64,000 nt of DNA from an uncultured Candidatus Saccharibacteria bacterium (GTDB lineage: Bacteria > Patescibacteriota > Minisyncoccia > Phycocordibacterales > JAKAEA01): the NCBI GenBank assembly GCA_964520645.1, contig CAZFND010000003.1, positions 881-64,880 on the forward strand, in the 5' to 3' direction. The position numbers and the translations under genes are program-made. The notes below the pieces were generated by a model. That model was not told the DNA's origin. It made no database searches and saw only the letters and a list, made by a program, of their open reading frames with translations. Shown here piece after piece: positions 8,861 to 59,348 of this stretch. The number at the start of each line of letters is the position of its first letter. The first letter of the stretch is position 1.

Positions 8861-10024
8861 TTATTTCTTCTCCTTATCTACAAATGAGAGAGCCATCTTT
8901 TGTTCCTTTGGATCAAAGAGGGTGATCTTAAAGGTGTAGTTCTTTCCAAGTTCAAGCTTTGATCGAAGTTTTTCTTCTGAACCAAATTCTGAAACGTGTA
9001 CAAGACCTGCAATTCCTTCTTCGATAGATGCTAGAGCTCCATGCTTGTTGAATTTGATAACAACACCTTGAACCGTATCATCTTTCTTATATTTTGCAGA
9101 AGCTTCTTTCCAAGGATTTTCTTTGAGAGCCTTGATAGAAAGAGAAACTTTTCCTTCTTTGATTTCAATAATCTTTACATTGATCTTTTGACCAACTTTG
9201 AAGAGAAGTTTTGGATCTTCAACAAGTGACCAGTCGATTTCTGAGATGTGAACGAGTCCTTCAAGTCCTTCTTCAATCTTTACGAAGACACCGAAGTCTA
9301 CGATTCCTGTAATTTCACCTACAACTTCGTCGTTAATCTTGTATTTACCTATAATCTTTTCTTTATCTTTTTGTTCGAGATTCTTTTCTGAGAAAATGAG
9401 TTTTCCTTCTTTTGGAATAGCTGAAATAATAGAAACTGCAATTTTCTGTCCTACCAAGCGCTTGAGTTCTTCAAGAATTCGGTCTTTGTCACCATCAGCT
9501 ACTCGAGGGTAGTGTTCTGCCTTAAGCTGAGATGCAGGAAGGAATCCTTGAATACCTTGCCATGCGATGATAAGTCCACCTTTGTTTGCTTCTGTCACTG
9601 GAAGATCGAAGATCTTATGATCTCGGATAGCATCGAGAGCTTCACCCCAGATAAGCGCTTGTTTTGCTTCTTTAAGAGAAAGTTCTACATATCCATCCTT
9701 ATTGTTTGTATCAACAACTTTTGCTCCTACTTTGTCGCCAATTCCTATCTTTTTAATGATATCTCGAGCAGCAATAAATTCTCGGCCGTAAATAATACCA
9801 GTTCCGTATGGTGGAAGGTCGATAAAAATGGCACTCTTTTCAATGCCGATAACTGTTCCTTCTACTAAATCTCCTACTGTAGGAGGAGTAACACTATCGT
9901 TTAAAACCTTAGACATTAATGTCTCTTTCTTTGGTTTTAACTCTTTTTCTTGCTCAGATTTTGTATCTTCAGTGATATCTGAAGCAACAGGTTCTAAAAC
10001 TGCTGTTTTTGATTTTTTGTCCAT
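8861..10024 (-). CDS. rpsA: 30S ribosomal protein S1 (short 4-domain form)
   Basis: Four S1 repeats (GDLVEGTVIGIE…, GDKVGAKVV…, NDEVVGEITGIVDFGVFVKI…, DDTVQGVVIKFNKHGALASI…). Start chosen at MDKKSK. Confidence 0.8.
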   Translation of the reverse strand: MDKKSKTAVLEPVASDITEDTKSEQEKELKPKKETLMSKVLNDSVTPPTVGDLVEGTVIGIEKSAIFIDLPPYGTGIIYGREFIAARDIIKKIGIGDKVGAKVVDTNNKDGYVELSLKEAKQALIWGEALDAIRDHKIFDLPVTEANKGGLIIAWQGIQGFLPASQLKAEHYPRVADGDKDRILEELKRLVGQKIAVSIISAIPKEGKLIFSEKNLEQKDKEKIIGKYKINDEVVGEITGIVDFGVFVKIEEGLEGLVHISEIDWSLVEDPKLLFKVGQKINVKIIEIKEGKVSLSIKALKENPWKEASAKYKKDDTVQGVVIKFNKHGALASIEEGIAGLVHVSEFGSEEKLRSKLELGKNYTFKITLFDPKEQKMALSFVDKEKK

Positions 10025-10143
10025 AAACGAAAAATGCAATAAGTTCTGAACAATCTGACAGGTCGGGGCGTTCAGGGCTACTTATTGGCTTACTATTAAT
10101 AATGACCGGAGTATAGCGTAAAAGTAGGGGGTTGTAAAGAACA

Positions 10144-10236
10144 CCCCGCCTCACCCCAACCCCTCTCCCTACCGTGAGAGGGGAATACGATCCTCTCCTG
10201 GTAAGGAGAGGATGCCCGCAGGGCAGGTGAGGCGGG
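10144..10236. repeat. nested palindromic intergenic element, copy 1 (full length)
   Basis: ccgcctcacc … cccctctc/gagagggg hairpin … cctctcc/ggagagg hairpin … ggtgaggcgg closing the outer stem. The same architecture recurs at 28610-28707 and, truncated, at 42691-42728. Confidence 0.6.
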
Positions 10237-10274
10237 ATTTTCTAAAAATTAGAAAGCTGCTATACTACACCCAT

Positions 10275-10904
10275 ATGGTTATTACATTTCACGGAAATCA
10301 GTTTTTCAAGATGACGTTTGGAGACACCGTATTAGCCTTCAATCCCATCTCAAAAGATTCAAAACTCAAGTCATCCCGCTTTGGTGCAGATGTTAGTTTA
10401 ATTAGTATTAATAATCCAGATTTTAATGGTAGTGATCAGCTTTCATTTGGAGAAAAACAGCCTTTTGTGATTTCTGGTCCCGGAGAATATGAAGTGAAAG
10501 GCGTATTTATCAAAGGATTTCCTTCTACATCTACATATGGAGGTGAGGCTCTCATTAATACGGTGTATACGCTTGCACTAGACAGCATAAATATCTGTTT
10601 CTTGGGAGCACTTGATTCAAAAGAAATCACTCCTGAAATCAAGGGAGCACTCGATGAAGTAGATATTCTATTTATTCCAATTGGAGGAAAAGGTACTCTT
10701 TCTGCTGCTGATGCATATAAATTGGCTGTTCAATTCGAACCCAAAATAATTATCCCTATAGGGTATGATGATGATAAAGATGCGCTTAAGACATTTTTGA
10801 AAGAAGGAGGAGGTGAGCAATCAAAGCCTGTTGATAAATTGACGCTTAAACGAAAAGATTTGGAAGGCAAAGAAGGTGAAATAGTTATATTAGCAGCTAG
10901 CTAA
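10275..10904 (+). CDS. MBL-fold metal-dependent hydrolase (UlaG/UPF0173-like)
   Basis: MVITFHGNQ… N-terminus and DVLFIPIGG block typical of small metallo-beta-lactamase-fold hydrolases. Start reassigned to the ATG at 10275, preceded by TATACT. Confidence 0.55.
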   Translation: MVITFHGNQFFKMTFGDTVLAFNPISKDSKLKSSRFGADVSLISINNPDFNGSDQLSFGEKQPFVISGPGEYEVKGVFIKGFPSTSTYGGEALINTVYTLALDSINICFLGALDSKEITPEIKGALDEVDILFIPIGGKGTLSAADAYKLAVQFEPKIIIPIGYDDDKDALKTFLKEGGGEQSKPVDKLTLKRKDLEGKEGEIVILAAS

Positions 10905-10910
10905 ACATAT

Positions 10911-11189
10911 ATGAGTACATTTGATTCATTTAAACAAGTTTCTGATACCAAGAAAAAGCAATATGCTTTTGCAATAAGTAGTGTCATTATGATTGGAGTT
11001 ATTGGTATTTGGGCAGGTACATTACCAGCTCGATTTGCACAACCTGCTGCAGTACAAGAAGCTCCAGCTGTGCAGCCAATATCAGAAGCGGCTGGGCGAG
11101 CACAAGTAGAAAGTATTTTAAATGGTTCATCAAATGGTGTACAAATTATAGATTCAACAACTACTGCTCCATTGAATGGAAGTTATTAA
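10911..11189 (+). CDS. hypothetical membrane-anchored protein
   Basis: Single TM (AFAISSVIMIGVIGIWAG) then an Ala/Gln/Pro-rich segment; no recognisable domain. Confidence 0.3.
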   Translation: MSTFDSFKQVSDTKKKQYAFAISSVIMIGVIGIWAGTLPARFAQPAAVQEAPAVQPISEAAGRAQVESILNGSSNGVQIIDSTTTAPLNGSY

Positions 11190-11209
11190 TGATATAGGAT
11201 AATTCTCAT

Positions 11210-13678
11210 ATGGCTGAAAAAAACACCAAAAAATCGGCGGACATTGCTCCAGTACCACATATTAACGTTGTAGATCGAAGTATCTCGACAGAAATGCGCG
11301 AGTCTTTTATCGACTATGCCATGTCTGTTATTACAGATCGTGCGCTTCCTGACGTGCGAGACGGATTGAAACCGGTACACCGAAGAATTCTCTATGCTAT
11401 GCATGAGATGAATTTGACGGCATCTGCAAAGTTTCGAAAATCGGCTGCAGTAGTGGGAGAAGTGCTCGGTAACTATCACCCTCATGGTGATGTGGCTGTA
11501 TACGATTCTATGGTGAAGATGGCACAAGACTTTTCTATGCGCTATCCGCTTATTATGGGCCAAGGAAACTTTGGTTCTATTGATGGAGACTCAGCAGCGG
11601 CTATGCGATATACCGAAGCCAAGATGTCTCGTCCTGCAAGTGAATTGCTTCGAGATATTGAAAAGGATACGGTAGATTTTCGCCCTAATTACGATGGTAC
11701 CCGAAAGGAGCCATCAGTGTTACCTGCAGCTGTTCCCAATTTATTACTCAATGGAACTCTTGGTATTGCTGTAGGTATGGCAACAAACGTTCCTCCTCAC
11801 AATCTTGGAGAAATTGTAGATGCTACAGTTCATCTCGCAGAAAACAAAGATGCAACCAATGAAGATTTGATGGGCTTTATCAAAGGTCCAGATTTTCCTA
11901 CCGGAGGAGTTATGTATGGTGAAAAAGATATTCATCATGCATATGCAAATGGAAAGGGAGGTATTGTCGTACGAGGTGAAGCAGAAATAATCGAATCAAA
12001 GTCAGACAATTTTCAAATTATAATTACTTCTATTCCGTATCGAGTAAATAAGGCTGATCTTATTATGTCTATTGCTGATCTCGTTCGAGACAAAAAGCTC
12101 GAAGGAGTAAAAGGATTACGTGATGAATCATCAAAAGATATCCGTATTGTAATTGATTTAAAAAACGGTGTTCATCCACAAAAAGTTCTCAACTTTATAT
12201 ACAAGCACACACAGCTCGAAGAAACATTTCACTTAAACATTGTTGCGCTTGTAAATGGCGTACCACAAACCCTTCCACTCAAATCTATCCTTCAGGAATT
12301 TATTGCACACCGAATGGTGGTGGTGCGACGACGTACTGAATACGATCTTAAAAAAGCAGAAGAACGCGAGCACATTTTGATTGGTCTTAAGAAAGCACTC
12401 GATCATATCGATGAAATCATTGCGCTTATTAAACGATCAAAAGATACTCCAACTGCTCATGCCAATTTGATGAAGGAGTTTAAGTTTTCTGCGATTCAGG
12501 CAACTGCAATTTTGGAAATGAGATTGCAAAAGCTCGCCGGACTTGAACGAAAGAAGATTGAAGACGAACTCAAGGCGATTCAAGCACTTATCGAAGAGCT
12601 CAAATCTATTTTGGCTAGTCCAAAGAAGATGCTTACTATTATTAAAGATGAGCTTAAACTTATTAAAGAAAAGTACGGTGATGAACGAAAGACACGTCTT
12701 GTAAAAGGTGCAGTACAGACATTTTCTGAAGAAGATCTTGTTCCTGATGAAGAATCAGTACTTGTAATGACAGCAGGAGGTTATATTAAGCGTACTGATC
12801 CTGAAGAATATCGAAAGCAAAAGAGAGGTGGAGTAGGAGTTGTAGATCTTGATACTAAAGAAGAAGATTTTGTTACAGCACTTCTTACAACAAATACGCA
12901 TAGTGACTTGCTCTTCTTTACTGATAAAGGAAAAGCATATCAAATGAAGATGTATGAAATTCCAGAAGGACGTCGTGCTACTCGAGGAAAATCAATTATG
13001 AACTTCCTTGCACTCGAAGGCACTGAGAAGGTTACATCTATTATTGCAATGCCAAAGGCTGCAAAAGATAGTAGTTTGTCATTGCTTATGGTGACTCGCG
13101 ACGGAGTAGCTAAGAAAGTAGCTGCAGAAAGCTTCCACGATGTACGACGTTCTGGAATCATAGCTATCAAGCTTGCACCAAGTGATCAGCTTATCTCTGT
13201 ATCATTTGTAGATAAGGGAGACGATGCAATTGTTGTCACATCTGAGGGGCAATCTATTCGATTTAAAGAATCTGACGTTCGAGAAATGGGCCGTGGTGCT
13301 GCAGGAGTAACTGCAATACATTTAGGAAAAGGAGATAGTGTTATTTGTGCTGATATTGTGAAAAAAGATTTCAAAGATCCATCATTGCTTGTAGTAATGA
13401 AGAATGGTTATGGTAAAAAGACTGATTTGAAAGAGTACAAAGTTCAAAAACGAGGTGGATCAGGTATCAAGACTGCTCAAGTAACTGACAAAACAGGAAA
13501 TGTGATTGCTGCTAAGGTAGTAATAGAAGATGGCTCAGAGCTTGTTGCTATGTCTAAGAAGAGTCAGGTTATACGTGTAGATATTAATGAAGTTCCATCT
13601 CTTGGACGTCAAACTCAAGGTGTACGTATTATGAAACTTCGAGATGGTGATGCTATCGCTTCTGCGGTGTGTTTGTAA
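11210..13678 (+). CDS. gyrA: DNA gyrase subunit A
   Basis: [28 protein letters not shown], active-site [12 protein letters not shown], and C-terminal beta-pinwheel repeats. Confidence 0.95.
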
Positions 13679-13736
13679 AAAATTGTGTTGATAACTTTTG
13701 CTATTAGCATTTCTTCCAAACTGCTATACTAGAGCT

Positions 13737-14270
13737 ATGGCTTTTTCTGATCCAATAAAAAATTTAGAATCTCTCAGCTTGAGTGAAGGTGCTGTAGTTG
13801 CTGACCTTGGTGCGGGATCTGGTTTTTATACCGTTGCTGCAGCACAGCTTGTACAAGCTCATGGAAAAGTGTATGCAGTTGATGTTCAGCAAGACTTATT
13901 AAGTCGTCTTAAGAACACAGCACATGAAGCACGGCTCACTAATATTGAGTATGTGCATGGTAATGCAGAAAAAATAGGAGGAACACGTATACGCGATAAT
14001 TCAGTAGATGTTGTTTTGGCGTGCAATATATTCTTTCAAATAGAAGAAAAAGAAAATTTCTTAGCGGAGGCAAAAAGAATTCTCAAGCCGAGTGGTAGAA
14101 TATTGCTTGTAGATTGGGAAGATTCGTTTGGTGGAATGGGTCCACAACCGCAGCATGTGGTGGCACCTACAGAAGCACGAGAATATTTACAAAAAGCAGG
14201 ATTTACTAAGGTAAGTGATATTGATGCAGGAGAGCATCATTATGGCTTTATATATAGAAAACAATCATGA
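13737..14270 (+). CDS. class I SAM-dependent methyltransferase
   Basis: Motif I VADLGAGSGFY and ILKPSGRILLVDW. Start set at MAFSDP. Its stop overlaps the start of the next gene. Confidence 0.7.
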   Translation: MAFSDPIKNLESLSLSEGAVVADLGAGSGFYTVAAAQLVQAHGKVYAVDVQQDLLSRLKNTAHEARLTNIEYVHGNAEKIGGTRIRDNSVDVVLACNIFFQIEEKENFLAEAKRILKPSGRILLVDWEDSFGGMGPQPQHVVAPTEAREYLQKAGFTKVSDIDAGEHHYGFIYRKQS

Positions 14271-15556
14271 AAGGAAGCAATTTTCAAATTATATTTTTAG
14301 GAGTATGTATATTTTTAGCAATTGCAGGACTTCTTTATTTTGCAGCATTTAAAGCATCTGACCAAAAATCAGCAATTTCAATTGTAATTTGGGGTACATT
14401 ACCTAATAGTTCTGTAAATGGATATATTACGCAGCTTACAAAAGATAATGAAGATTATAGTATTGCCTATGTTCAAAAACGTGCAGACACATTTGATCAG
14501 GCTTTCCTTGAAGCATTAGCTTCTGGTACTGGTCCTGATGCTCTTTTGGTGAGTCAGGATACATTGCTTAAGTATAGGAATAAGATTGTTACATTGCCAT
14601 ATTCAAGCTTGTCTAAACAAGCATTTAAAGACACCTATATTTCAGCAGCAGAAGTATATTTAAATTCAGCAGGAACATTGGCGCTTCCATTTTCGATAGA
14701 TCCATTAGTAATGTATTGGAATCGAGATTTGTTTACTAATGCTCAAATTGCATTACCTCCTAAGACATGGGATGAATTTAATACCGTGGCACCTCAGATC
14801 ACTCAACGACAAGGGTTACTTAATATCACACAAAGTGCGGTAGGGTTGGGAGAATTTAGAAATATAACTCATGCCAAAGAAATCGTGAGTCTTCTTATGA
14901 TGCAGTCAGGAAATCCTATTGTAGTTGCAAATGATGCTGGATATTTTTCATCAGTAATAAGTAGTAATAAATCAACATCTGCTCTGACATTCTTTACTCA
15001 ATTTGCAAATCCAGACAAAGAAGCATATTCATGGAATCGTTCATTAGCTGAGTCAAAGAATTTATTTTTAGCTAATAAACTCGGTGTATATTTTGGATAT
15101 GCGAGCGAATTAGCAGAATTGAAAGCAAAAAATCCAAATCTTAATTTTAGTGTAGCAGTAGTTCCTCAATTAAAACCTACTACAAATGTCCCTCAAGTAA
15201 AAATGACCTACGGAGGCATGTATGGTCTTTCTATTGTACGAAATACAAAGAGTGTATCTGATACAGCAAAAGCTCTTATCTTTTTAACAAGCAAAGAGGG
15301 AAGTCCTATTTGGAATACAATTACTGGATTGCCTTCAGTAAGAAGAGATAGTGTTACAAGCCAAGGAAACAACGAAGCTTCTGGCGTCTTTGCAACATCT
15401 GCATTGTGGGCGCGAGCATGGCCAGATCCAAATGGTCCACTCACGAATAAAATCTTTCAAGACATGGTTGAAAATGTGACATCTGGTCGGCTTGATCCTG
15501 GTGGAGCAGTATCTCAAGCGCAAGGAGAAATTCAAAACGTGATCAATAAACAATAA
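14267..15556 (+). CDS. membrane-anchored extracellular solute-binding protein (SBP family 1-like)
   Basis: N-terminal TM, then IVIWGTLP… and GTGPDALLVSQDTLLKY pattern typical of MalE-type SBPs. No permease or ATPase is adjacent. Confidence 0.55.
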   Translation: MKGSNFQIIFLGVCIFLAIAGLLYFAAFKASDQKSAISIVIWGTLPNSSVNGYITQLTKDNEDYSIAYVQKRADTFDQAFLEALASGTGPDALLVSQDTLLKYRNKIVTLPYSSLSKQAFKDTYISAAEVYLNSAGTLALPFSIDPLVMYWNRDLFTNAQIALPPKTWDEFNTVAPQITQRQGLLNITQSAVGLGEFRNITHAKEIVSLLMMQSGNPIVVANDAGYFSSVISSNKSTSALTFFTQFANPDKEAYSWNRSLAESKNLFLANKLGVYFGYASELAELKAKNPNLNFSVAVVPQLKPTTNVPQVKMTYGGMYGLSIVRNTKSVSDTAKALIFLTSKEGSPIWNTITGLPSVRRDSVTSQGNNEASGVFATSALWARAWPDPNGPLTNKIFQDMVENVTSGRLDPGGAVSQAQGEIQNVINKQ

Positions 15557-15557
15557 T

Positions 15558-15998
15558 ATGAAGAAAATTATTCTCGTCTTATTCCTAACCATATTTTCAG
15601 TACAGTTTTTGTTTCCTACTTTTGCACGTGCTAATGGTGGTGGCTTCTCATTAGGACTAGTACCTTGTGGTCAGGGAGATAGAATAGTGAATAATGTTGT
15701 GCAATCATCACCACCATGTGATTTGCAGCAATTTGTAATCATGATTAGAAATATCATTGATTTTCTTGGTTTTCTTTCCATACCTATAGCCACCATTGCC
15801 ATCACTGTAGCTGGATTTGTTCTTATATTTGCTCGAGGAAATGTAGAGCGAATTAAATATGCTAAGAATATTCTGATAAAAGTACTCATTGGATTTTTGA
15901 TTGTGCTGTGTGCATGGGGATTGGTATATCTCATTACGAGTACCTTACTTGATCCATGTGCACAATATCTTGGTACTCCAAGTGCTGCATGTAAATAG
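15558..15998 (+). CDS. VirB2/TrbC-like (T4SS-pilin-like) small secreted two-TM protein, paralog 1
   Basis: Signal peptide (…FARA), four Cys, two C-terminal hydrophobic helices separated by a short basic loop (ARGNVERIKYAKN). Only 2 nt gap from the upstream SBP gene. Confidence 0.5.
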   Translation: MKKIILVLFLTIFSVQFLFPTFARANGGGFSLGLVPCGQGDRIVNNVVQSSPPCDLQQFVIMIRNIIDFLGFLSIPIATIAITVAGFVLIFARGNVERIKYAKNILIKVLIGFLIVLCAWGLVYLITSTLLDPCAQYLGTPSAACK

Positions 15999-16014
15999 TC
16001 ATCAATAAAAATAT

Positions 16015-16488
16015 ATGAAAAAAAATAGAATAATTATTATCACATTACTTTCACTCTGTATGTATACTGGATTTATTATAAGTAATGTTCAATTTGCTTA
16101 CGCGCAACTTGGTGGTACACAAGCAGGGCAAACAGGAGGAACTCAATCTGGTCAGACTGGAGGGACACAATCTGGACAAATAGGTGGTACACAAGCAGGA
16201 CAGCCTGGAGGAATATATACCGTTCCTAACCCTCTAAAAGGGCCTACAACCCTCCTTGGAGTGCTCGCGGTAGTATTGGATGTCGTAGTGCAAGTTGGAG
16301 CTGTTATAGCGGTTCTCTTTATTATTTGGTCAGGTTTCCTCTTTATCACTGCTCAGGGAAATCCAGAAAAAATAAGAATAGCAAAAAGTACTCTCTATAC
16401 CACACTCGTAGGAACAGCTTTGGTACTCGGATCAAGTGTAATTGCAAGTATTTTAGTAAATACAGTTAATAAAGTTACTAATAAATAA
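16015..16488 (+). CDS. VirB2/TrbC-like pilin-like protein, paralog 2 (with GGTQxGQ tandem repeats)
   Basis: Signal peptide, then (GGTQ[AS]GQ[TI]) x4 encoded by 21-nt tandem repeats at about 16110-16200, followed by the same two-helix core (…IIWSGFLFITAQGNPEKIRIAK…). Confidence 0.5.
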   Translation: MKKNRIIIITLLSLCMYTGFIISNVQFAYAQLGGTQAGQTGGTQSGQTGGTQSGQIGGTQAGQPGGIYTVPNPLKGPTTLLGVLAVVLDVVVQVGAVIAVLFIIWSGFLFITAQGNPEKIRIAKSTLYTTLVGTALVLGSSVIASILVNTVNKVTNK

Positions 16489-16492
16489 CTAC

Positions 16493-16870
16493 ATGAAAAA
16501 ATTAGGAATTATTATAAGTATAGCTGCTTTCCCGGGTATTATATATGCTGCTGATGTTACGGATTTATTGAGCTTGTTTAATTTTATGACGCAGCTCATC
16601 AATGCGTTTGTTCCACTATTATTTGGCCTTGCGATGCTTGCATTTTTATGGGGAATGGTGAAGTTTATTTACTATGCTGATGATCCAAAGCGTCGTGCCG
16701 ATGGGAAATATGTCATGATCTGGGGGGTCGTTGCTCTTGCCGTGATGATGTCTATGTGGGGATTGGCGCTTACGTTAAAAAATATGTTTTTCTCTAACTC
16801 TCCTGCACCAATAAATGTTTCTAACAATGGACATACTCAGTATGATGAGCCTATCGATAATAATTTATAG
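16493..16870 (+). CDS. VirB2/TrbC-like pilin-like protein, paralog 3
   Basis: Signal peptide; core LFGLAMLAFLWGMVKFIYYADDPKRRADGKYVMIWGVVALAVMMSMWGL matches the array consensus. Confidence 0.5.
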   Translation: MKKLGIIISIAAFPGIIYAADVTDLLSLFNFMTQLINAFVPLLFGLAMLAFLWGMVKFIYYADDPKRRADGKYVMIWGVVALAVMMSMWGLALTLKNMFFSNSPAPINVSNNGHTQYDEPIDNNL

Positions 16871-16991
16871 GCATAAGATATCCACATTCTTGTTGCAATT
16901 TTCTCATCAGTAGCTCATAATTTAGAAAGCTTTTTAGTTTTTGTATAAAAACAAAAAGGTCGTTAGTATTATTAGTTTATTTTTATTATAA

Positions 16992-17381
16992 ATGAAAAAA
17001 TTTTTAGTAGGTGCTTCATCAATAGCAGCACTTGCACTTCCAAGTCTTGCTTTTGCAAACTCAAACTCAATCAGTTTGAATCTTTCAGGTTTTCAAGGAT
17101 CAGTAGCAAGTCTTACTGATGCTGTAAACTCATTGGTTCCATTTGGTCTTGCTGTTGCTGTTATCGTATTTATTTACGGTATCATTCGATACATCATCGG
17201 AAAGGATGCTGGTGCACAGTCAGAAGCTCGAAGTTATATGATTTGGGGTGTTGTAGGTATTGCTGTTATCTTGGCAGTACTTGGACTTGCAAAGCTTCTT
17301 ACAAATCTTCTTGGAGTTCAGACAGGTTCAGGAGGTGTAGTTGGTAATGATCTTCCACAGGTTCCAAATAGTGCTAACTAA
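16992..17381 (+). CDS. VirB2/TrbC-like pilin-like protein, paralog 4
   Basis: Signal peptide (…LAFA); core FGLAVAVIVFIYGIIRYIIGKDAGAQSEARSYMIWGVVGIAVILAVLGL. Confidence 0.5.
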   Translation: MKKFLVGASSIAALALPSLAFANSNSISLNLSGFQGSVASLTDAVNSLVPFGLAVAVIVFIYGIIRYIIGKDAGAQSEARSYMIWGVVGIAVILAVLGLAKLLTNLLGVQTGSGGVVGNDLPQVPNSAN

Positions 17382-17403
17382 GTATTTATAGTATTTACGC
17401 TTC

Positions 17404-17745
17404 ATGCAATTATTTGGCACTCTCTATACTCCTCTTAAAACATATGTCATTTTTCCAGCAATAGGAATACTGTTTGGAGTAGCGATGATTTATTTTTTGT
17501 GGGGGATGGTAGTCTTCATTTGGAGTTCTAGTAACGAAGAAGGACGACAAAAAGGGAAGGAGCACATGATGTATGGAGTTTTGGGACTAGCTATTATGTT
17601 GTCAGTGTATGGTATTATGAATTTTATTCTTGCTACCATACGAAGTATTGGACCGGGTCTGCATTACGATGCCAATGGTATTCGTCAGGATAGGCCGGTT
17701 GAAAATCCTTCCACATTAATGGATCTTGAAGGTTCCAATAAGTAA
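17404..17745 (+). CDS. VirB2/TrbC-like pilin-like protein, paralog 5 (no cleavable signal peptide)
   Basis: Core LFGVAMIYFLWGMVVFIWSSSNEEGRQKGKEHMMYGVLGLAIMLSVYGI starts almost at the N-terminus; distinct C-terminal tail. Confidence 0.45.
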   Translation: MQLFGTLYTPLKTYVIFPAIGILFGVAMIYFLWGMVVFIWSSSNEEGRQKGKEHMMYGVLGLAIMLSVYGIMNFILATIRSIGPGLHYDANGIRQDRPVENPSTLMDLEGSNK

Positions 17746-17757
17746 CTACAAATAAAC

Positions 17758-17797
17758 AAAAACTACGTAATACTTTCTGGTATAACGTAGTTTTTGT
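17758..17797 (+). terminator. rho-independent terminator after the pilin-like array
   Basis: aaactacgt…acgtagttttt hairpin followed by a T-run. Confidence 0.55.
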
Positions 17798-17814
17798 TTG
17801 GGGAAATTAAGTAT

Positions 17815-17844
17815 GAAAAAAGCGGGACAACTATGTCGTCCCGC
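17815..17844 (-). terminator. rho-independent terminator of the high-GC cassette gene 1
   Basis: On the minus strand, gcgggacgacatagttgtcccgc followed by TTTTTT, about 30 nt after the stop at 17871. Confidence 0.6.
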
Positions 17845-17870
17845 TCTGGTTTAGCACGAAGTGCTGATGT

Positions 17871-19037
17871 TCAAATTCCTTTCGATCTTTCCGTGATGTC
17901 GTTGCGTTCCCAACGAATTCCTACACCCTTTTCAGGAGGCTCAACTGCCTGGAATCTCAATCCGTATATGACTCCGAGCGTTGTGCCCATATTCTCTGGC
18001 TCGCTTCCTGGCGGAAGTGGCCACAGAATTTGTTCAAATCGAGGCTTCCGAGTGAGGTTCTGGTTGTGGGTAGGACCATGGTCCACCTCGATAAGGATCC
18101 TACCTTTCGTAGGCAAATCCAAGAAGATGTTGTACAAATTTTCTTTCCCCCTGAAGTTGCCCTTGATTGGAGCTGACCATTGTCCCAATGGTACATCATG
18201 GTACTCATATCCTCCGTCTGCTGGATAGCAGAAGGGATGGAGTTTGTCGTACACCTGGGCCGCGGTCTGAGGTGTAGCTGGCGCCGGAGGATCAACTCCG
18301 ATGCTGAGCTTAGGCGCCTGCTTGGACGGTTGAGGTGTCTTTGCCTCAGCGATTCGCGCTTCGGCTTCTTTCTCTCTTGCCCTTGCTTCGGCAATTCGCA
18401 CAGCATCGGGTGATGCTGGCTGCTGCTTGGCTTTGACCAGAGCATGTTCCTTGGCGGCCAGCTTCTCCTTTTCCACCAGCTCTGCAATACGTGGAGCATA
18501 GTAGGTGTTGAAGTTGCCTAGGATAGTCACGATGTTGATCAGGATTGCTCCGGCACTCGTAGTTTTCCATAGTAGCAGCATCGCTTTTTGGACCCCGCTC
18601 ATTTTTGTCTTTTCATCTTTGCCTGGAGTCTGATCCTCCTTTTGGGCGATGGCAAACGGAATCGAAAAAACGATAATTCCGATTACCAGGAACCACCATT
18701 CATCGGTATATCGGTATACCGAAATAAAGTGGGTTGGAGTCAGAGACCTGATCGCAAACTCCACGAATATGAAGATGAAGCAGGCAACGAGCAGAATGAT
18801 GAGCTTGAGGCGGTGTTCAGTTGCTAGCCTACCCAAGCCTTTCTTTCCTGTGCTGTCTGAAGTTGAAGCAGTGTCATTTGCCTTCTGCTTGGTTTTGTCC
18901 CATTCAGGTTCTTGATGTCGTATGGTTTCTTGGATTTTTCCTATCACCCAAGAAATTAGTTTAACAAAAGCAACAATGCCACCGACGATCAGGACACATC
19001 CACATACGATGAGCGTAATCAAAACATTATCTGTCAT
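17871..19037 (-). CDS. polytopic membrane protein with Ala/Glu/Pro-rich coiled-coil linker and conserved C-terminal domain (high-GC cassette gene 1)
   Basis: Several TM helices, AEARAREKEAEARIAEAK coiled coil, C-terminal globular region. High third-position GC. Own promoter (TTGACT-17-TATTAT) and AAGGAGttcgcATG ribosome-binding site. Confidence 0.55.
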   Translation of the reverse strand: MTDNVLITLIVCGCVLIVGGIVAFVKLISWVIGKIQETIRHQEPEWDKTKQKANDTASTSDSTGKKGLGRLATEHRLKLIILLVACFIFIFVEFAIRSLTPTHFISVYRYTDEWWFLVIGIIVFSIPFAIAQKEDQTPGKDEKTKMSGVQKAMLLLWKTTSAGAILINIVTILGNFNTYYAPRIAELVEKEKLAAKEHALVKAKQQPASPDAVRIAEARAREKEAEARIAEAKTPQPSKQAPKLSIGVDPPAPATPQTAAQVYDKLHPFCYPADGGYEYHDVPLGQWSAPIKGNFRGKENLYNIFLDLPTKGRILIEVDHGPTHNQNLTRKPRFEQILWPLPPGSEPENMGTTLGVIYGLRFQAVEPPEKGVGIRWERNDITERSKGI

Positions 19038-19221: not shown

Positions 19222-20394
19222 TTAACTAACGGGTGTTTGAATAACTGGAGATGCACCAGACCCATCAACTAGAGTCTGCCCCTTAAATCCAGCTACTCCC
19301 TTTGCTCGTTCTTGAGCAACAAGTACCTGAGGGGCATGTGCACCTAGTGCATTCACCTTTGCTGCTAGAACGTTAGCTTCTGCCTTACCTACTTGTGTGA
19401 TAGCACTTGCTTTACCTCGCGCTTCTTCACTTTCGGCATCTGCTTTAAGTGTAGCTGCTGTTCTTGCTTCCAGCGCTTGTTCAAGAGCAAAATTTGCGTC
19501 ATATCCAGCAGAGTTGTAGGCAGCTACACCCATGCCAGTTGTCTGAATGGTGCCACTGTTTCCTAAGCTGGCATTGAGTACTGCTTGTTCGAATTCTCCA
19601 GGAGTTGCTTTCCCATCTTTTCCAATCTTAGAAGTTGCTTTTTCCAACTCTCGGATTGCATCAAGGTTCATTTTTCGGAAAAAGTCATTAATGGCTCCTG
19701 CGATCGCATCATGCACATGGAAATAATAATTCCCATTCAAAAGAACGTAAGGTGTAAGAAAGTTGTGGGTAATGAGTGTTGCTGTTCCCCAGTTACGAAT
19801 CTTAGCCTGTCCTTTTGTTTCAACCCCATCTACGGTTGTGATGAATCCAGGCACTTCAATACCCTCTACATCAACCGAAATGACTTGCTGTAAAGGAAGG
19901 TCGGTTACCCATGTGGTTCGCGTGACTATTCCACGGGTATTGTCTATTTTGTAATGGTCTGGATTTTTTTCAGCTTTTTCCTTATCTCCTGGTTTCAACG
20001 GACGACGGTAACTGACTGGTACGCTTACCACTTTGTTTGGGGGGAAACCATAAAAATATGCTCCCAATGTTCGTTCTGACCAGGTAGGGGGGTCTGGTTG
20101 ATGAAATACCGCAGGTCCAGTGTCTGTTGCAGGTTGAGGAAAAAGGACGGCTCCTGTTAATTGGTCTATTCCATAACCTGGTGGTAGGCCATGCAGTATT
20201 TTTACTACCTTATTGCCCTTCGAGATGATCTGCGCATATCCCGATCTACGGAAAGTAAAAATTATTTTTCTATTAGCCATGTCAGTCACTATTGATCGAG
20301 CCGCGAGAAGTAAAAAGGGTGTGGCAATTGTAATTCCACCAATGGCCAGAAAAATAAACAAAGCAAACACCACAATCGCAATAATCCATAACAT
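19222..20394 (-). CDS. SPFH/band-7 (flotillin-like) membrane protein (high-GC cassette gene 2)
   Basis: N-terminal TM, a central SPFH-like core and an Ala/Glu-rich C-terminal region (EQALEARTAATLKADAESEEARGKA…). Preceded by AAGGAGttcagcATG and a TTGACT promoter. Confidence 0.45.
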   Translation of the reverse strand: MLWIIAIVVFALFIFLAIGGITIATPFLLLAARSIVTDMANRKIIFTFRRSGYAQIISKGNKVVKILHGLPPGYGIDQLTGAVLFPQPATDTGPAVFHQPDPPTWSERTLGAYFYGFPPNKVVSVPVSYRRPLKPGDKEKAEKNPDHYKIDNTRGIVTRTTWVTDLPLQQVISVDVEGIEVPGFITTVDGVETKGQAKIRNWGTATLITHNFLTPYVLLNGNYYFHVHDAIAGAINDFFRKMNLDAIRELEKATSKIGKDGKATPGEFEQAVLNASLGNSGTIQTTGMGVAAYNSAGYDANFALEQALEARTAATLKADAESEEARGKASAITQVGKAEANVLAAKVNALGAHAPQVLVAQERAKGVAGFKGQTLVDGSGASPVIQTPVS

Positions 20395-20518
20395 GCTGAA
20401 CTCCTTCCGTTACAAACGGTTTTGGGGGGTTGAATAGTTAAGTTCAATGTCAGAGAACAACTGTAATCTATTATGTAATATATAATAAAATACTAAAAAG
20501 TCAAGTAAAACGATGTTG

Positions 20519-20600
20519 TGCCGAGGAGAGGACTTGAACCTCCATGGGTTACCCCGCTTGCTCCTAAGGCAAGTGCGTCTGCCAATTTCGCCACCTCGGC
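20519..20600 (-). tRNA. tRNA-Leu (anticodon UAG)
   Basis: gccgaggtggcgaaattggcagacgc… with 3-bp D-stem, anticodon loop cuUAGga, long variable arm, T-loop ttcaagt. No encoded CCA. Confidence 0.8.
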
Positions 20601-20642
20601 ATTATTTGATTACGTAGCAATCAAAGATTCTGTTTATTATAG

Positions 20643-21986
20643 CTATTTTTTGTGTGTTAGCAATATAATATCTTTTTCTTCAAATGCTGTAATCCAACCC
20701 TCATTCTTTAAATCAGAAATAAATTGCTTATTATAAGTAGAAAATAGCACGCAATCTATAGAATGTTTTTTAAATTCTGCAGCACGATAATCTTTATCTT
20801 TTAGTATGTTGTTATAATTTTTAAAATAATCCTCTCCATTAAGCTTCCAGCTTGGCATACGACCATCTATATATACTTTGTGTGTTGGAAGTTTCCAGAT
20901 TAAATAGCCCCCATAATTGTAATAATTAAAAATAGTAGAGCAGGTGTTATTGGCTTTAATAAAATCAATTTCTTTTTCGGGGTATACGACATGATATCCT
21001 GTGGTGTTATAGATACCTCCTGCTGCAAGTCCTAATGCTAGACCAAAACTAATGTATATCATTTCCCATTTTTTTAGTTTTGTTTGTAGTGACGTTCGTA
21101 GATCTGCTAGCGCATATTCAAAATGCTTAAGCATTTCGGCACTAAAAAACAGGTAGTATCTAATAGATGAAAGTGACATAAGCAAAAATATCATTGGTAG
21201 AGAAATGATATTTTTCCATGTGAATTTCTTTGTAGCTAACAAAATTCCAAGAAGGGGAATAATTGTTACATAATAAAGTTGAGGGATTGCAAATCGTTTC
21301 CATTCAGAAACATAGACATGAAGATTGCTATCAAAAACTGTTCTAAATATTTCTATATATACTTTAAAACCATACGGATTGATACAGGTAGCAAGTACAG
21401 AAAGTCCAATAACATACCAGGGGATAGTATGCTCCTTAATTATTTTATAAAACAATAGTACTCCCAATCCTAAAATAAAACTGCCATGCATATTACTCCA
21501 GAGAAGTATGAGGAGAGGAATGAACCATACTATATTTTTTCGCGAGCTTTCAAGCAGCCGTTGTAAAAGCGCAAAAAATACTAGTGACCATGCTGATGGT
21601 CGAACAAAACTAAAGGAAAGAATAGACACACTCGTAGCGACAAGTACGACTTCGTCATACAAGCGTGAGGCAAGAAAAATTCCAAGCGTCCAGATGGCTG
21701 CAAACACAATAGCTAACAGATAAAAACCTCCAATATTGTATAGAAGTGCCGTAATCACATCACTGAGCCATTCATGATTGATCCATTCAAAATGAGATGC
21801 TGTGTACGTATACACGTCATAGTGGGGAACACCATGGCTTAAAATGTAATTTCCAGCTTGCAAGTGCCACCCAAAATCAGGATCAAAAAGAATAGATGTG
21901 TTAACCAAAAAAACAACAAAAACAATCGCAACACTAGAAGTAAATTTCCAATTAATGGGGGATAAATACTTCTTCAAGAAAAACAT
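20643..21986 (-). CDS. polytopic membrane protein, putative GT-C-type glycosyltransferase
   Basis: About 12 TM helices, an N-terminal loop motif DPDFGWHLQAG…, and a C-terminal soluble domain. Architecture resembles PMT/ArnT/YfhO-like GT-C enzymes. Confidence 0.4.
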   Translation of the reverse strand: MFFLKKYLSPINWKFTSSVAIVFVVFLVNTSILFDPDFGWHLQAGNYILSHGVPHYDVYTYTASHFEWINHEWLSDVITALLYNIGGFYLLAIVFAAIWTLGIFLASRLYDEVVLVATSVSILSFSFVRPSAWSLVFFALLQRLLESSRKNIVWFIPLLILLWSNMHGSFILGLGVLLFYKIIKEHTIPWYVIGLSVLATCINPYGFKVYIEIFRTVFDSNLHVYVSEWKRFAIPQLYYVTIIPLLGILLATKKFTWKNIISLPMIFLLMSLSSIRYYLFFSAEMLKHFEYALADLRTSLQTKLKKWEMIYISFGLALGLAAGGIYNTTGYHVVYPEKEIDFIKANNTCSTIFNYYNYGGYLIWKLPTHKVYIDGRMPSWKLNGEDYFKNYNNILKDKDYRAAEFKKHSIDCVLFSTYNKQFISDLKNEGWITAFEEKDIILLTHKK

Positions 21987-21992
21987 AAAATG

Positions 21993-22065
21993 TCCACCCA
22001 GCAGGATTCGAACCTGCGACCTACCGCTTAAGAGGCGGATGCTCTACCAACTGAGCTATAGGTGG
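21993..22065 (-). tRNA. tRNA-Lys (anticodon CUU)
   Basis: Cloverleaf folded by hand: acceptor ccaccta/tgggtgg, D-arm gctc…gagc, anticodon loop cuCUUaa, T-loop ttcgaat. Confidence 0.75.
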
Positions 22066-22117
22066 ATATAGGTTTTTATACCATATATTTCTTCAAAAAT
22101 CTAATGAGAAATGAATG

Positions 22118-22199
22118 TGCCCGGGGCGGGAATCGAACCCGCATCCCTTTCGAGACACGATTTTAAGTCGTGCGCGTATACCAGTTCCGCCACCCGGGC
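22118..22199 (-). tRNA. tRNA-Leu (anticodon UAA)
   Basis: gcccgggtggcggaactggtatacgc…, anticodon loop cuUAAaa, long variable arm, T-loop ttcgatt. Confidence 0.75.
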
Positions 22200-22254
22200 A
22201 TTGTAAAATGAACACACAATCAGATTATCATACAGATATGTATATAATCTAGTG

Positions 22255-22326
22255 AGGCCACGGCGAGAATCGAACTCGCGCATAGAGATTTTGCAGATCT
22301 CCGAATTACCACTTTTCTACGTGGCC
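22255..22326 (-). tRNA. tRNA-Cys (anticodon GCA)
   Basis: Acceptor ggccacg/cgtggcc, short D-arm, anticodon loop cuGCAaa, T-loop ttcgatt. Confidence 0.7.
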
Positions 22327-28707: not shown

Positions 28708-28765
28708 TCACATTTGTACGGTTTTATGATAAGTTTGAATACACAACTTATATAACGTTGTAGAT

Positions 28766-28847
28766 GCGTAGGTACTCAAGTGGTCAACGAGGTCTGACTG
28801 TAAATCAGATGGCACCGCCTTCGGGGGTTCGAATCCCTCCCTACGCA
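28766..28847 (+). tRNA. tRNA-Tyr (anticodon GUA)
   Basis: gcgtagg acceptor, anticodon arm tctga-cuGUAaa-tcaga (matches the E. coli tRNA-Tyr loop ACUGUAAAU), long variable arm, T-loop ttcgaat. Only 3 nt from the ddl start. Confidence 0.75.
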
Positions 28848-28850
28848 CAA

Positions 28851-58630: not shown

Positions 58631-58631
58631 T

Positions 58632-59348
58632 ATGTCGCTCGTTACGGTACGAAATCTTAAAAAAACATATTACAACGAGGGTACTGCGACGCCTGTATTG
58701 CATGGTATCAACTTTACTATTGAACCAGGAGAATTCGTAGCGGTGATGGGGCCATCAGGATCTGGAAAATCAACATTACTCCAAATTCTGGGATTTCTTG
58801 ATGGCCATACTTCGGGAGAATATATATTTGAAGGGCGGGAAGTGTCTGGATATTCAAAAGCAGAAGTAGCAAAAATTCGTAATCAAAAATTAGGATTTAT
58901 TTTTCAAGCATTCAACTTGCTGGCCCGTACGACCGTGCTTGAAAATGTAAAATTGCCGCTTCTCTATTCTGATATTCCAGAATCTGAGTGGGACAAACGA
59001 GCCAAGAAAGCTATCGAATCGGTAGGACTGTCTCACCGAATCGATCATGAACCAGCTCAGCTTTCTGGTGGAGAAAAGCAGCGTGTGGCGATTGCACGAG
59101 CACTTGTCTGTGAACCAAGTATTATTTTTGCAGACGAGCCAACAGGAAACCTCGACTCAAAATCAGGCCAGACAGTCATGGAAATCATTCAAAAATTAAA
59201 TGAAGAAGGTCATACTGTTCTTCTTATTACTCACGAAACATCTACAGCCGAGCATGCGCAACGTATAATTCATATCAAAGACGGTCTTATAGAAAGTGAT
59301 ACAAAAGTTAAGAATCGTCGAAAGGCGACTGATAACTATAGTAAATAA
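58632..59348 (+). CDS. ABC transporter ATP-binding protein (MacB/LolD type)
   Basis: Walker [10 protein letters not shown], signature LSGGEKQR, Walker B IIFADEPT. Start reset to MSLVTV. Confidence 0.85.

What the first reader, a model, noticed from the sequence alone, without database searches (positions are those of the whole stretch)
15558..17745. Tandem array of five paralogous VirB2/TrbC-like pilin-type proteins
Five consecutive small genes share an architecture: a signal peptide, then two closely spaced hydrophobic helices joined by a short basic loop (…F.WG.V.FI…P…R…G.…G…A.M.S.WG…). This is the layout of conjugative VirB2/TrbC pilins. The cluster holds no other T4SS component.

Paralog 2 carries GGTQxGQ repeats, paralog 1 has four Cys, and paralog 5 has lost its signal peptide. 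That pattern points to diversification of a surface-exposed family. The array follows gyrA, a methyltransferase and an anchored solute-binding protein with only 2 nt gaps, so it is probably co-transcribed.

In episymbiotic ultra-small bacteria, surface appendage subunits are plausible host-contact determinants.
Basis: partly seen in the sequence, partly recalled or inferred. Interest (0 to 1): 0.65.

Follow-up and report, generated by a model that had tools for sequence, protein, structure and literature searches.

The report
Five-gene VirB2-like pilin array in Paceibacteria
Five adjacent small genes encode secretion-system "pilin"-type membrane hairpin proteins, a gene array already described in ultra-small Patescibacteria; what is new is that in this lineage the array has a fixed gene order and always follows a sugar-type binding-protein gene, away from any secretion ATPase gene.

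Summary
Five consecutive + strand ORFs (15558-17745) each score above Pfam's own cut-off for PF18895 T4SS_pilin. P1-P4 have a signal peptide plus two transmembrane helices; P5 has only the two helices. No other T4SS gene was found in the 64-kb window.

Tandem arrays of 2-11 divergent VirB2-like pilins are reported in 383 Patescibacteria assemblies (PMC12102498) and are essential in Southlakia epibionticum (PMC10633639). NCBI already names relatives "pilin".

Comparative work here adds three points:
- The paralogs are old, not recently diversified. Across five genomes they cluster by position, and the order type1-type2-middle-terminal recurs in 55 species. The window has the commonest form.
- Lack of a signal peptide is the usual state of the terminal paralog, not a recent loss.
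- In 55 of 55 Paceibacteria species representatives, a membrane-anchored MalE-like binding protein is directly followed by such an array. A methyltransferase and gyrA usually lie upstream, and no VirB4-like ORF was identified within 10 kb.

Direct similarity to Agrobacterium VirB2 and to solved pilus structures is weak. Whether a pilus forms, and whether it depends on a distant VirB4, was not tested.

The parts
13698..14270 (+). Class I SAM-dependent methyltransferase with no signal peptide. It is a co-conserved upstream neighbour; its functional link to the array is unknown.
   Evidence: Pfam Methyltransf_11/25/31. Directly upstream of the SBP ortholog in 65 of 74 evaluable species loci. Overlaps the SBP start by 4 nt.
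14267..15556 (+). Membrane-anchored MalE-like (sugar-type) solute-binding protein. It lies directly upstream of the array and its ortholog is followed by a pilin array in every species examined.
   Evidence: Pfam SBP_bac_8 and SBP_bac_1. Best native solved relative is sugar ABC SBP 4qrz, E = 1.6e-11, followed by MalE entries. The N-terminal hydrophobic anchor is visible in the sequence. In 55 of 55 loci with at least 3 kb downstream it is followed by a pilin array, with a gap of 27 nt or less in 46 of 55.
15558..15998 (+). P1, type-1 pilin (subfamily A). Signal peptide, then a short outside segment with a Cys pair (LVPCG...PPCD), two TM helices, and a C-terminal tail with a second Cys pair.
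   Evidence: PF18895 34.9 bits (cut-off 26.6); TrbC PF04956 21.9 bits, E = 2e-4, below cut-off. Hydropathy and Cys positions. Position-1 clade across five genomes. Position-1 orthologs in relatives carry large N-terminal regions of 370-541 aa in total length.
16015..16488 (+). P2, type-2 pilin (subfamily A, the most TrbC-like). Signal peptide, four GGTQ[AS]GQ repeats (DNA 16110-16211), then two TM helices.
   Evidence: PF18895 31.2 bits; TrbC E = 0.0095. TRF period 24, 4.2 copies. The L002 ortholog has a different low-complexity repeat (PGSPAG) at the same place. The L005 ortholog has a PF04956 hit recorded at E <= 1e-5.
16493..16870 (+). P3, middle-type pilin (subfamily B; F.WG...MIWG...WGL motif).
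   Evidence: PF18895 38.5 bits. AlphaFold2 model: hairpin of helices 25-60 and 65-99, mean pLDDT 78.8; mature form 80.3. In relatives this position can be a two-module fusion, e.g. L005 237 aa.
16871..16991 (+). 121-nt spacer inside the array, with a promoter-like site (TTGCAA, 17 nt, CATAAT at 16893-16921) ahead of P4.
   Evidence: Promoter scan (the total count is not above chance). The -10-like box aligns across window, L002 and L005 spacers. Median largest internal gap in 55 arrays is 106 nt. RNA fold not significant, z = -1.78. A promoter role is inferred.
16992..17381 (+). P4, middle-type pilin (subfamily B).
   Evidence: PF18895 31.7 bits. Signal-like segment plus two TM segments. 61% identical to the L002 ortholog.
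17404..17745 (+). P5, terminal-type pilin (subfamily B). It has no cleavable signal peptide and only about 20 residues before TM1.
   Evidence: PF18895 32.2 bits; NF045849 E = 1.2e-7. An in-frame stop 15 nt upstream of the ATG. The last-position clade is shared by five genomes. Last-position genes in 54 species have a median of 91.5 aa with about 20 residues before TM1.
17753..17800 (.). Long AT-rich hairpin flanked by an A-run and a T-run, lying between P5 and the convergent downstream ORF. It is a likely bidirectional intrinsic terminator that ends the array's transcript.
   Evidence: ViennaRNA minimum free energy -23.3 kcal/mol for 17750-17805. Sequence read. The consensus scan missed it because the stem is AT-rich. 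Terminator function is inferred.

Best explanation
What is shown. The five genes encode members of the Patescibacterial T4SS_pilin family (PF18895), which belongs with the VirB2/TrbC-like conjugative pilins. They form a fixed, non-redundant set. It has two subfamily-A members with variable outside N-terminal segments (P1 with a Cys loop, P2 with Gly/Gln repeats). It has two 'middle' subfamily-B members (P3, P4) and one terminal subfamily-B member without a signal peptide (P5). The set is part of a conserved Paceibacteria block, (gyrA)-methyltransferase-SBP-pilins. It lies away from any VirB4 gene.

Proposed mechanism (inferred).
1. P1-P4 are inserted through Sec and cut by signal peptidase I after their A-x-A sites. 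P5 inserts without cleavage.
2. Each subunit sits in the membrane as an N-out/C-out helical hairpin with a short, charged cytoplasmic loop.
3. A VirB4-type, monoderm-like T4SS encoded elsewhere extracts this membrane pool and assembles it into a heteromeric surface filament or conduit used in contact with a host cell.
4. P3-P5 make up the body. P1 and P2, whose orthologs carry large outside N-terminal regions in relatives, act as minor or adhesive subunits.
5. The MalE-like binding protein encoded 1 nt upstream works with the structure, for example by recognising host glycans or capturing sugars.
For: Family membership:
- All five proteins are above the PF18895 cut-off.
- 35 of 35 aligned relatives hit PF18895 and 33 of 35 hit NF045849, 'pilin-like conjugal transfer protein', best E = 1.7e-12.
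- TrbC/VirB2 cross-hits occur for P1 and P2 and for position-2 orthologs.
- The best PDB sequence hit of the family profile is the pKM101 pilin TraM, 8cw4, E = 0.025.
- AlphaFold2 predicts a two-helix hairpin. Its top Foldseek hit for the mature form is the Aeropyrum conjugative pilus 8dfu, although that match is not significant.

Topology: hydropathy profile and A-x-A sites.

Old, fixed, non-redundant set:
- Modules cluster by position, not by genome.
- The order '12mmz' is seen in 19 of 55 species, and 1-2-m(n)-z is seen overall.
- Orthologs are 41-61% identical, against 90% for GyrA.

Conserved block: 55 of 55 SBP loci carry an array.

A T4SS elsewhere is plausible: two genomes that carry the same block (L063, L069) are listed as VirB4-positive in Table S1 of PMC12102498. 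That paper reports pilin genes away from virB4 in many assemblies.

Functional precedent: the pilin array of S. epibionticum lies within its T4SS gene cluster and is essential.
Against: - No T4SS gene lies in the 64-kb window. None was found within 10 kb of the array in the four annotated relatives or among the larger ORFs of the 80 species loci. The link to a T4SS rests on homology and on other lineages.
- Direct profile-profile comparison with Agrobacterium VirB2 is weak: E = 0.025 and 0.072, probability below 2%.
- Foldseek finds no significant structural match; the best E-values are 0.89 and 2.0. A two-helix hairpin is a non-specific fold.
- Relatives include single polypeptides with up to 17 pilin modules. 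These are hard to fit into a helical pilus unless they are cleaved.
- No pilus has been seen in any Paceibacterium, as far as the papers read here say.
Confidence: 0.6

Rival explanations
1. The five hairpin proteins and the upstream binding protein form a membrane complex of their own that does not depend on a T4SS. It could be an uptake or sensing device in which the MalE-like protein hands a ligand to an oligomer of two-TM subunits. In this view the pilin homology reflects ancestry only.
For: - The SBP and the array are coupled in 55 of 55 species, mostly with gaps of -4 to +27 nt, while both flanks vary.
- No VirB4-like ORF was identified beside the array in this clade.
- No ABC permease or ATPase for the SBP is conserved nearby.
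- Fused proteins with 2-17 modules resemble polytopic membrane proteins more than pilus subunits.
Against: - Family-level homology points to conjugation pilin-like proteins.
- In other Patescibacteria classes the same family sits next to virB4, and it is essential there.
- Genomes carrying the block do have VirB4.
- No known transporter is built from such subunits.
Confidence: 0.15
2. The paralogs are interchangeable alternative major pilins, kept for antigenic variation or host-range variation, as proposed for the virB2 paralog arrays of Bartonella and Anaplasma.
For: - Pairwise identity among the paralogs is low, 20-34%.
- Orthologs evolve fast, 41-61% identity against 90% for GyrA.
- The repeat and outside segments of P1 and P2 vary between genomes.
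- The idea was raised in PMC12102498.
Against: - Each paralog type is an old orthogroup held at a fixed position in 55 species.
- Only the number of middle-type genes varies.
- The types differ structurally, in presence of a signal peptide and in outside N-terminal regions. That argues for distinct roles in one assembly.
Confidence: 0.1
3. The genes encode generic small two-TM membrane proteins, and the Pfam match reflects hydrophobic composition and not pilin ancestry.
For: - The fold is a simple hairpin with no significant structural hits.
- Several weak hits to unrelated membrane families appear at E = 0.004-1.
- hhalign against true VirB2 is weak.
Against: - All five proteins exceed a curated cut-off.
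- 33 of 35 relatives hit an independent conjugation-pilin model down to E = 1.7e-12.
- Non-hydrophobic loop motifs are conserved, GN.E...AK and EEAKK.GK.
- The family has 11,147 cluster representatives at E <= 1e-10.
Confidence: 0.03

Closest known systems
VirB2-like pilin arrays of Patescibacteria. Quinonero-Coronel et al. 2025 (PMC12102498) report 441 arrays of 2-11 genes in 383 assemblies. Wang et al. 2023 (PMC10633639) describe the essential array within the T4SS gene cluster (SEML1_0006-0019) of Southlakia epibionticum ML1.
   Same: - Same Pfam family, PF18895.
- Tandem small genes with about 25% mutual identity.
- Signal peptide plus two TM helices.
- Monoderm ultra-small host.
- Five genes falls within the reported range.
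   Different: - Here the array is not in a T4SS cluster. It lies downstream of gyrA-methyltransferase-SBP, with no VirB4 in 64 kb.
- The host class is Paceibacteria, not Saccharimonadia.
- The papers read do not mention SBP linkage, a fixed subtype order, or a terminal member without a signal peptide.
TrbC/VirB2 pilins of diderm MPF_T systems (Pfam PF04956), e.g. Agrobacterium VirB2 and pKM101 TraM
   Same: - Small size, a cleavable leader, and a two-helix hydrophobic hairpin with a charged connecting loop.
- Weak sequence signals: P1 E = 2e-4 to PF04956, and TraM 8cw4 is the top PDB sequence hit.
   Different: - Scores are below the PF04956 cut-off.
- hhalign to Agrobacterium VirB2 is not significant.
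- The host is a monoderm with no outer membrane.
- There are five co-ordered paralogs, not a single major pilin gene sitting next to virB1 and virB3.
Mbov_0395 / MMCAP2_0565 family of pilin-like conjugal transfer proteins from mycoplasma ICEs (NCBIfam NF045849)
   Same: The hairpin core is homologous. All five window proteins hit at E = 1e-7 to 7e-4, and 33 of 35 relatives hit with best E = 1.7e-12. The host is wall-less or monoderm, which fits the MPF_FATA ancestry proposed for the Patescibacterial T4SS.
   Different: - Scores of 19-31 bits are below the equivalog cut-off of 40.
- The ICE protein is encoded inside a mobile conjugative element, whereas this array is chromosomal, syntenic and flanked by housekeeping genes.
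virB2 paralog arrays of Bartonella and Anaplasma
   Same: Several divergent VirB2 copies in tandem. They are cited as the precedent in PMC12102498.
   Different: Those copies are thought to be alternative variants for immune evasion. Here the copies are ancient, position-specific types.
Archaeal conjugative (Ced/Ted-type) pili, e.g. Aeropyrum pernix 8dfu
   Same: Top Foldseek hit of the mature P3 model; a VirB2-like hairpin subunit in an organism with a single membrane.
   Different: The match is not significant (E = 2.0, TM-score 0.44/0.53), and no sequence similarity was detected.

Membership tests
Pfam PF18895 T4SS_pilin | Whole-protein score at or above the curated gathering score of 26.6 bits | tested here: met
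   P1 34.9, P2 31.2, P3 38.5, P4 31.7 and P5 32.2 bits. 35 of 35 aligned relatives also match.
Pfam PF18895 T4SS_pilin | Architecture: N-terminal signal peptide followed by two TM helices joined by a short charged loop | tested here: met
   The hydropathy scan shows this in P1-P4. P5 has the two helices but no leader, as is usual for its orthogroup. The AlphaFold2 hairpin has pLDDT 79-80. No dedicated signal-peptide predictor was available.
Pfam PF18895 T4SS_pilin | Encoded with, or in a genome that has, a VirB4-type T4SS | tested here: inconclusive
   No T4SS family was found in the 64-kb window or within 10 kb in relatives. The rest of this genome is not available. Two genomes with the same block are VirB4-positive in Table S1 of PMC12102498.
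Patescibacterial VirB2-like pilin array (as described in PMC12102498) | 2-11 pilin genes in tandem or separated by one non-pilin gene, with low mutual identity (mean about 25%, maximum 54%) | tested here: met
   Five adjacent genes with gaps of 4-121 nt. Identity is 20-28% over full length and 25-34% over the core. The definition is quoted.
Pfam PF04956 TrbC/VirB2 | Score at or above the gathering score of 27.9 bits | tested here: not met
   P1 21.9 bits (E = 2e-4) and P2 16.6 bits (E = 0.0095). P3-P5 have no hit. Some position-2 orthologs in relatives do have recorded PF04956 hits.
Pfam PF04956 TrbC/VirB2 | Demonstrable profile-level homology to prototype VirB2 | tested here: inconclusive
   hhalign of the family profiles against an alignment of annotated Agrobacterium and Acetobacter VirB2 gave E = 0.025 and 0.072 with probability below 2%, although the hairpin aligns in register. 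hmmsearch against PDB sequences has pKM101 TraM as top hit at E = 0.025.
Pfam PF04956 TrbC/VirB2 | Fold matches solved conjugative pilins | tested here: inconclusive
Pfam PF04956 TrbC/VirB2 | Polymerises into an extracellular pilus; processing or cyclisation of the subunit | not testable with these tools
   Needs microscopy, proteomics or biochemistry.
NCBIfam NF045849 Mbov_0395 pilin-like conjugal transfer protein (equivalog) | Score at or above the cut-off of 40 bits | tested here: not met
   19.2-31.3 bits for the five proteins. They are homologous but not equivalogs. 33 of 35 relatives hit at E <= 0.01.

The most novel reading that the evidence does not exclude
In Paceibacteria, the MalE-like binding protein and the ordered five-type pilin set form one dedicated surface apparatus, distinct from the virB4-linked pilin clusters of other Patescibacteria. 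In this reading a VirB2-derived heteromeric filament or channel is functionally coupled to a sugar-binding protein. The coupling would serve to recognise host surface glycans or to capture and import host-derived carbohydrate. That would give a new functional context for conjugative-type pilins. The multi-module 'poly-pilin' proteins would be fused versions of the same assembly.
Probability: 0.2. Interest if true: 0.75.

Novelty: new member of a known kind. Interest (0 to 1): 0.38.

Why it matters
The role of the T4SS-like system and its pilin arrays in Patescibacteria is an open question. A 2024 perspective calls the T4SS role in Saccharibacteria 'completely unknown', although the system is essential in the one species tested.

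This locus adds no new kind of element. It does show three things for the very large class Paceibacteria:
- The pilin set is a stable, ordered, five-type unit.
- It is separate from the ATPase genes.
- It always follows a sugar-type binding protein.

These give concrete hypotheses about subunit roles, stoichiometry and a binding-protein partner. They also give a simple genomic marker, SBP followed by a 1-2-m-m-z array, for comparative and structural work.

Tried and rejected
Tools that failed or were unavailable:
- The search for related loci with the pilin alignment failed because it has no conserved 7-10-column stretch. The SBP alignment was used for that scan instead.
- Exact look-ups of P1 and P4 found no contig on record. 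P3 was found only on a 1.2-kb Logan contig.

Tests that gave weak or null results:
- Foldseek against PDB, with the full-length and the mature model, gave no significant hit.
- hhalign against real VirB2 sequences was weak. A subfamily-A profile against PDB sequences gave only chance GPCR hits.
- PHROGs found nothing for P1 or P3, so there is no phage link.
- The P3-P4 spacer does not fold better than shuffled sequence (z = -1.78). Rfam found only tRNAs in the window.
- Promoter and terminator consensus counts in 10000-18200 do not exceed chance. The promoter-like site and the hairpin are therefore inferences.

Ideas rejected:
- The small-ORF run at 51-57 kb was first suspected to be a second pilin or type IV pilus cluster. 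It encodes HIT, NUDIX, AHSA1-like, PNPOx and DoxX proteins and similar.
- The two unknown ORFs downstream of the array were considered as T4SS parts. They have no family hits and are absent from the 80 more distant loci.
Full report
**1. What is there**

ORF listing confirms five consecutive + strand genes:
- P1 15558-15998, 146 aa
- P2 16015-16488, 157 aa
- P3 16493-16870, 125 aa
- P4 16992-17381, 129 aa
- P5 17404-17745, 113 aa

The genes upstream on the same strand are gyrA (11210-13678), a class I methyltransferase (13698-14270) and a solute-binding protein with an N-terminal anchor (14267-15556). The gaps are 19, -4, 1, 16, 4, 121 and 22 nt.

After P5 there is a long AT-rich hairpin at 17753-17800, with a minimum free energy of -23.3 kcal/mol. 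An A-run and a T-run flank it, and it faces a convergent ORF. I read it as a bidirectional terminator, which is an inference.

A hydropathy scan gives P1-P4 a signal-like N-terminus plus two transmembrane segments, and gives P5 only the two segments. An in-frame stop 15 nt upstream of the P5 ATG excludes a longer reading frame.

The GGTQ[AS]GQ repeat in P2 is a real 24-nt tandem repeat of 4.2 copies at 16110-16211. P1 has five Cys, four of them in the predicted outside tails.

**2. Family assignment**

- All five proteins exceed the curated cut-off of Pfam PF18895 T4SS_pilin, scoring 31.2-38.5 bits against 26.6.
- P1 and P2 also give sub-threshold hits to TrbC/VirB2 PF04956, at E = 2e-4 and 0.0095.
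- All five give sub-threshold hits to NCBIfam NF045849, the mycoplasma-ICE 'pilin-like conjugal transfer protein'. Across 35 aligned relatives, 35 hit PF18895 and 33 hit NF045849, with best E = 1.7e-12.
- The family profile's best hit among PDB sequences is the pKM101 VirB2-type pilin TraM (8cw4), at E = 0.025.
- AlphaFold2 predicts a two-helix hairpin for P3, with pLDDT 78.8 for the full length and 80.3 for the mature form.
- Foldseek against PDB finds nothing significant. The Aeropyrum conjugative pilus 8dfu ranks fourth for the full-length model and first for the mature one (E = 1.5 and 2.0).
- I retrieved annotated VirB2 genes from Ti-type plasmids and compared profiles. hhalign aligns the hairpin in register, but only at E = 0.025-0.07 and probability below 2%.

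Membership of PF18895 is therefore firm. The link to prototype VirB2 rests on weak signals that all point the same way. NCBI already names some relatives 'pilin'.

**3. Context in the window**

Pfam scans of the larger ORFs of the 64-kb window give only housekeeping families. These include FtsZ/FtsA, signal peptidase I, IF2, ClpB, Ddl, Alr, ParB, TopA, DprA, SerRS, DnaX, archaeal-type SAM synthetase and a MacB-type ABC system. No VirB4, VirB6, VirD4 or type IV pilus ATPase appears. A family HMM finds no sixth pilin-like ORF.

**4. Who it is**

The window's proteins are held from an unnamed 72.6-kb NCBI contig. Homologs come from 'Candidatus Paceibacterota', Nomurabacteria, Taylorbacteria, Zambryskibacteria and Adlerbacteria. 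Table S1 of PMC12102498 places related genomes in the GTDB class Paceibacteria.

**5. Already known**

- Quinonero-Coronel et al. 2025 (PMC12102498) searched 3,035 Patescibacteria genomes with PF18895, PF04956 and diderm pilin profiles. They found VirB2-like pilins in 1,948 VirB4-positive assemblies, near virB4 in 1,135 of them.
- They also found 441 arrays of 2-11 pilin genes in 383 assemblies, with mean identity 25%.
- Wang et al. 2023 (PMC10633639) showed that a series of pilin genes inside the T4SS cluster of Southlakia epibionticum is essential.
- A 2025 review repeats this finding.

The finding is thus a further example of a described phenomenon.

**6. What the comparison adds**

(a) *Synteny.* Four other genomes (L002, L003, L005, L007) carry the same block. 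It runs HisRS, signal peptidase, Pth, S1, MBL, a small ORF (absent in L007), gyrA, MT, SBP and then 5-6 pilin genes. No T4SS Pfam family lies within 10 kb.

(b) *Old paralogs.* A neighbour-joining tree of the hairpin cores groups the modules by position, not by genome. There is a position-1 clade, a position-2 clade and a last-position clade, each spanning all five genomes. The middle group is more fluid, with duplications and two-module fusions. Window and L002 orthologs are 41-61% identical. By comparison GyrA is 90%, S1 is 93% and the SBP is 55%. The pilins therefore evolve fast, like other envelope proteins, but within fixed types.

(c) *Fixed order.* With subtype HMMs, 55 species loci show 1-2-m(n)-z. 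The window's '12mmz' is the commonest form, seen in 19 loci. '12mmmz' occurs in 9, '12mmmmz' in 8 and '2mmz' in 9.

(d) *Terminal type.* Last-position genes have a median of 91.5 aa, with about 20 residues before TM1, and most lack a leader on inspection. The leaderless state of P5 is typical. L002's leader-bearing ortholog is the exception.

(e) *SBP coupling.* A scan of one genome per species with the SBP alignment found at least 589 relatives. Of the best 80 loci, all 55 with at least 3 kb downstream have a + strand pilin array right after the SBP.
   - Array size is 2-8 genes, most often 5. The gap is 27 nt or less in 46 of the 55.
   - The methyltransferase is adjacent upstream in 65 of 74 evaluable loci. 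gyrA is within 10 kb upstream in 53 of 61.
   - Downstream genes vary between loci.
   - None of the larger ORFs in these loci looks like VirB4.
   - The SBP is MalE- or sugar-type. No conserved ABC permease lies nearby.
   - The 2025 paper does not mention SBP or gyrA.

(f) *VirB4 elsewhere.* Two genomes with the block, GW2011_GWA2_40_14 (L069) and Zambryskibacteria RIFOXYC1_FULL_39_10 (L063), are listed as VirB4-positive in Table S1 of PMC12102498.

**7. Mechanism**

Shown:
- family membership;
- the hairpin architecture;
- five distinct conserved types in a fixed order;
- tight linkage to the SBP;
- separation from T4SS genes.

Inferred:
- Sec insertion and signal peptidase I cleavage of P1-P4;
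- leaderless insertion of P5;
- N-out/C-out topology with the charged loop in the cytoplasm;
- extraction and polymerisation by a VirB4-type machine encoded elsewhere;
- a heteromeric filament in which P3-P5 form the body, while P1 and P2 act as minor or adhesive subunits. P1 and P2 have variable outside segments here, and position-1 orthologs reach 370-541 aa in relatives;
- co-transcription of MT, SBP, P1, P2 and P3, with a possible internal promoter before P4. This rests on a promoter-like site at 16893-16921 and a -10-like box aligned in three genomes.

**8. Doubts**

- The T4SS link is indirect in this clade.
- The family includes proteins with 2 to 17 modules in one chain. That fits a pilus poorly unless the chains are cleaved.
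- The hairpin fold is not specific.

For these reasons I keep a rival in which the SBP and the hairpin set form their own membrane complex (confidence 0.15). The antigenic-variation reading is disfavoured by the positional orthology (0.10).

**9. Verdict**

- Novelty: a new member of a known kind.
- The conserved SBP-pilin block, its fixed subtype order and the leaderless terminal type were not found in the papers I read, and they are testable. They are refinements of a known system.
- Interest: 0.38.

Noticed in passing
Related proteins P0149, P0263, P0184, P0205, P0220, P0134, P0122; also L005 10001-10714: The family includes single polypeptides with 2, 3 and up to 17 T4SS_pilin modules; P0149 is 1775 aa with 17 matched stretches. 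The linkers are predicted to lie outside the membrane, and there are no internal leaders. In relatives of the window, position 3 of the array is a two-module fusion (L005, 237 aa). These 'poly-pilins' are fused counterparts of the gene arrays. They are hard to reconcile with a simple helical pilus unless they are cleaved.
   Followed up: partly
window 17871-19037 (-) and 19222-20394 (-): Two ORFs of 388 and 390 aa run convergent to the array, in a stretch with 45.6% GC against about 37% elsewhere. They have N-terminal TM segments and Ala/Glu/Lys-rich stretches. They have no Pfam, NCBIfam or PHROG match. Orthologs exist in L002 at only 23% and 39% identity. The 390-aa protein found no match in the 80 more distant loci, and the 388-aa protein's result there was not examined. 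They are followed by tRNA-Leu at 20518-20600.
   Followed up: partly
L003 8205-9599, L005 8472-9584, L055 4722-6347: Position-1 pilins in some relatives carry large N-terminal regions, predicted to lie outside the membrane, fused to the hairpin module (464, 370 and 541 aa in total). The window's P1 has only about 35 such residues. This suggests that the position-1 type is the adhesin-bearing or tip-like member.
   Followed up: partly
window 16871-16991; L002 9879-10000; L005 10715-10829: Most arrays have one internal spacer of about 105-120 nt, which in the window and L002 precedes the penultimate pilin gene (the median largest internal gap over 55 arrays is 106 nt). In the window and L002 the spacer sequence is well conserved, including a -35/-10-like pair and a following A/T-rich hairpin. 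A -10-like box also aligns in L005.
   Followed up: partly
window 14267-15556: The MalE-like binding protein is an orphan. No BPD-type ABC permease or matching ATPase lies in the 64-kb window; the only ABC system is a MacB/FtsX-HlyD set at 57104-60583. No permease is conserved near its orthologs in the 80 species loci.
   Followed up: partly
window 20518-22326 (-): A cluster of four tRNA genes (Leu-tag, Lys-ctt, Leu-taa, Cys-gca) lies between the unknown ORFs, a 447-aa polytopic membrane protein, and rbfA-infB.
   Followed up: no
window 48276-49505 (+): The S-adenosylmethionine synthetase is of the archaeal type (PF01941, E = 4.5e-98).
   Followed up: no
window 28764-29861 (+) and 28766-28848 (+): The listed ORF for D-Ala-D-Ala ligase starts 2 nt before a tRNA-Tyr gene on the same strand. 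The Ddl N-terminal domain match begins at residue 36, so the true start codon is probably downstream of the tRNA.
   Followed up: no
L001 (Logan SRR14271372 contig, 1220 bp): A public sequencing run contains a short contig that encodes P3 exactly and a 157-aa T4SS_pilin gene at P2's position. The same or a nearly identical organism is therefore present in that sample.
   Followed up: no
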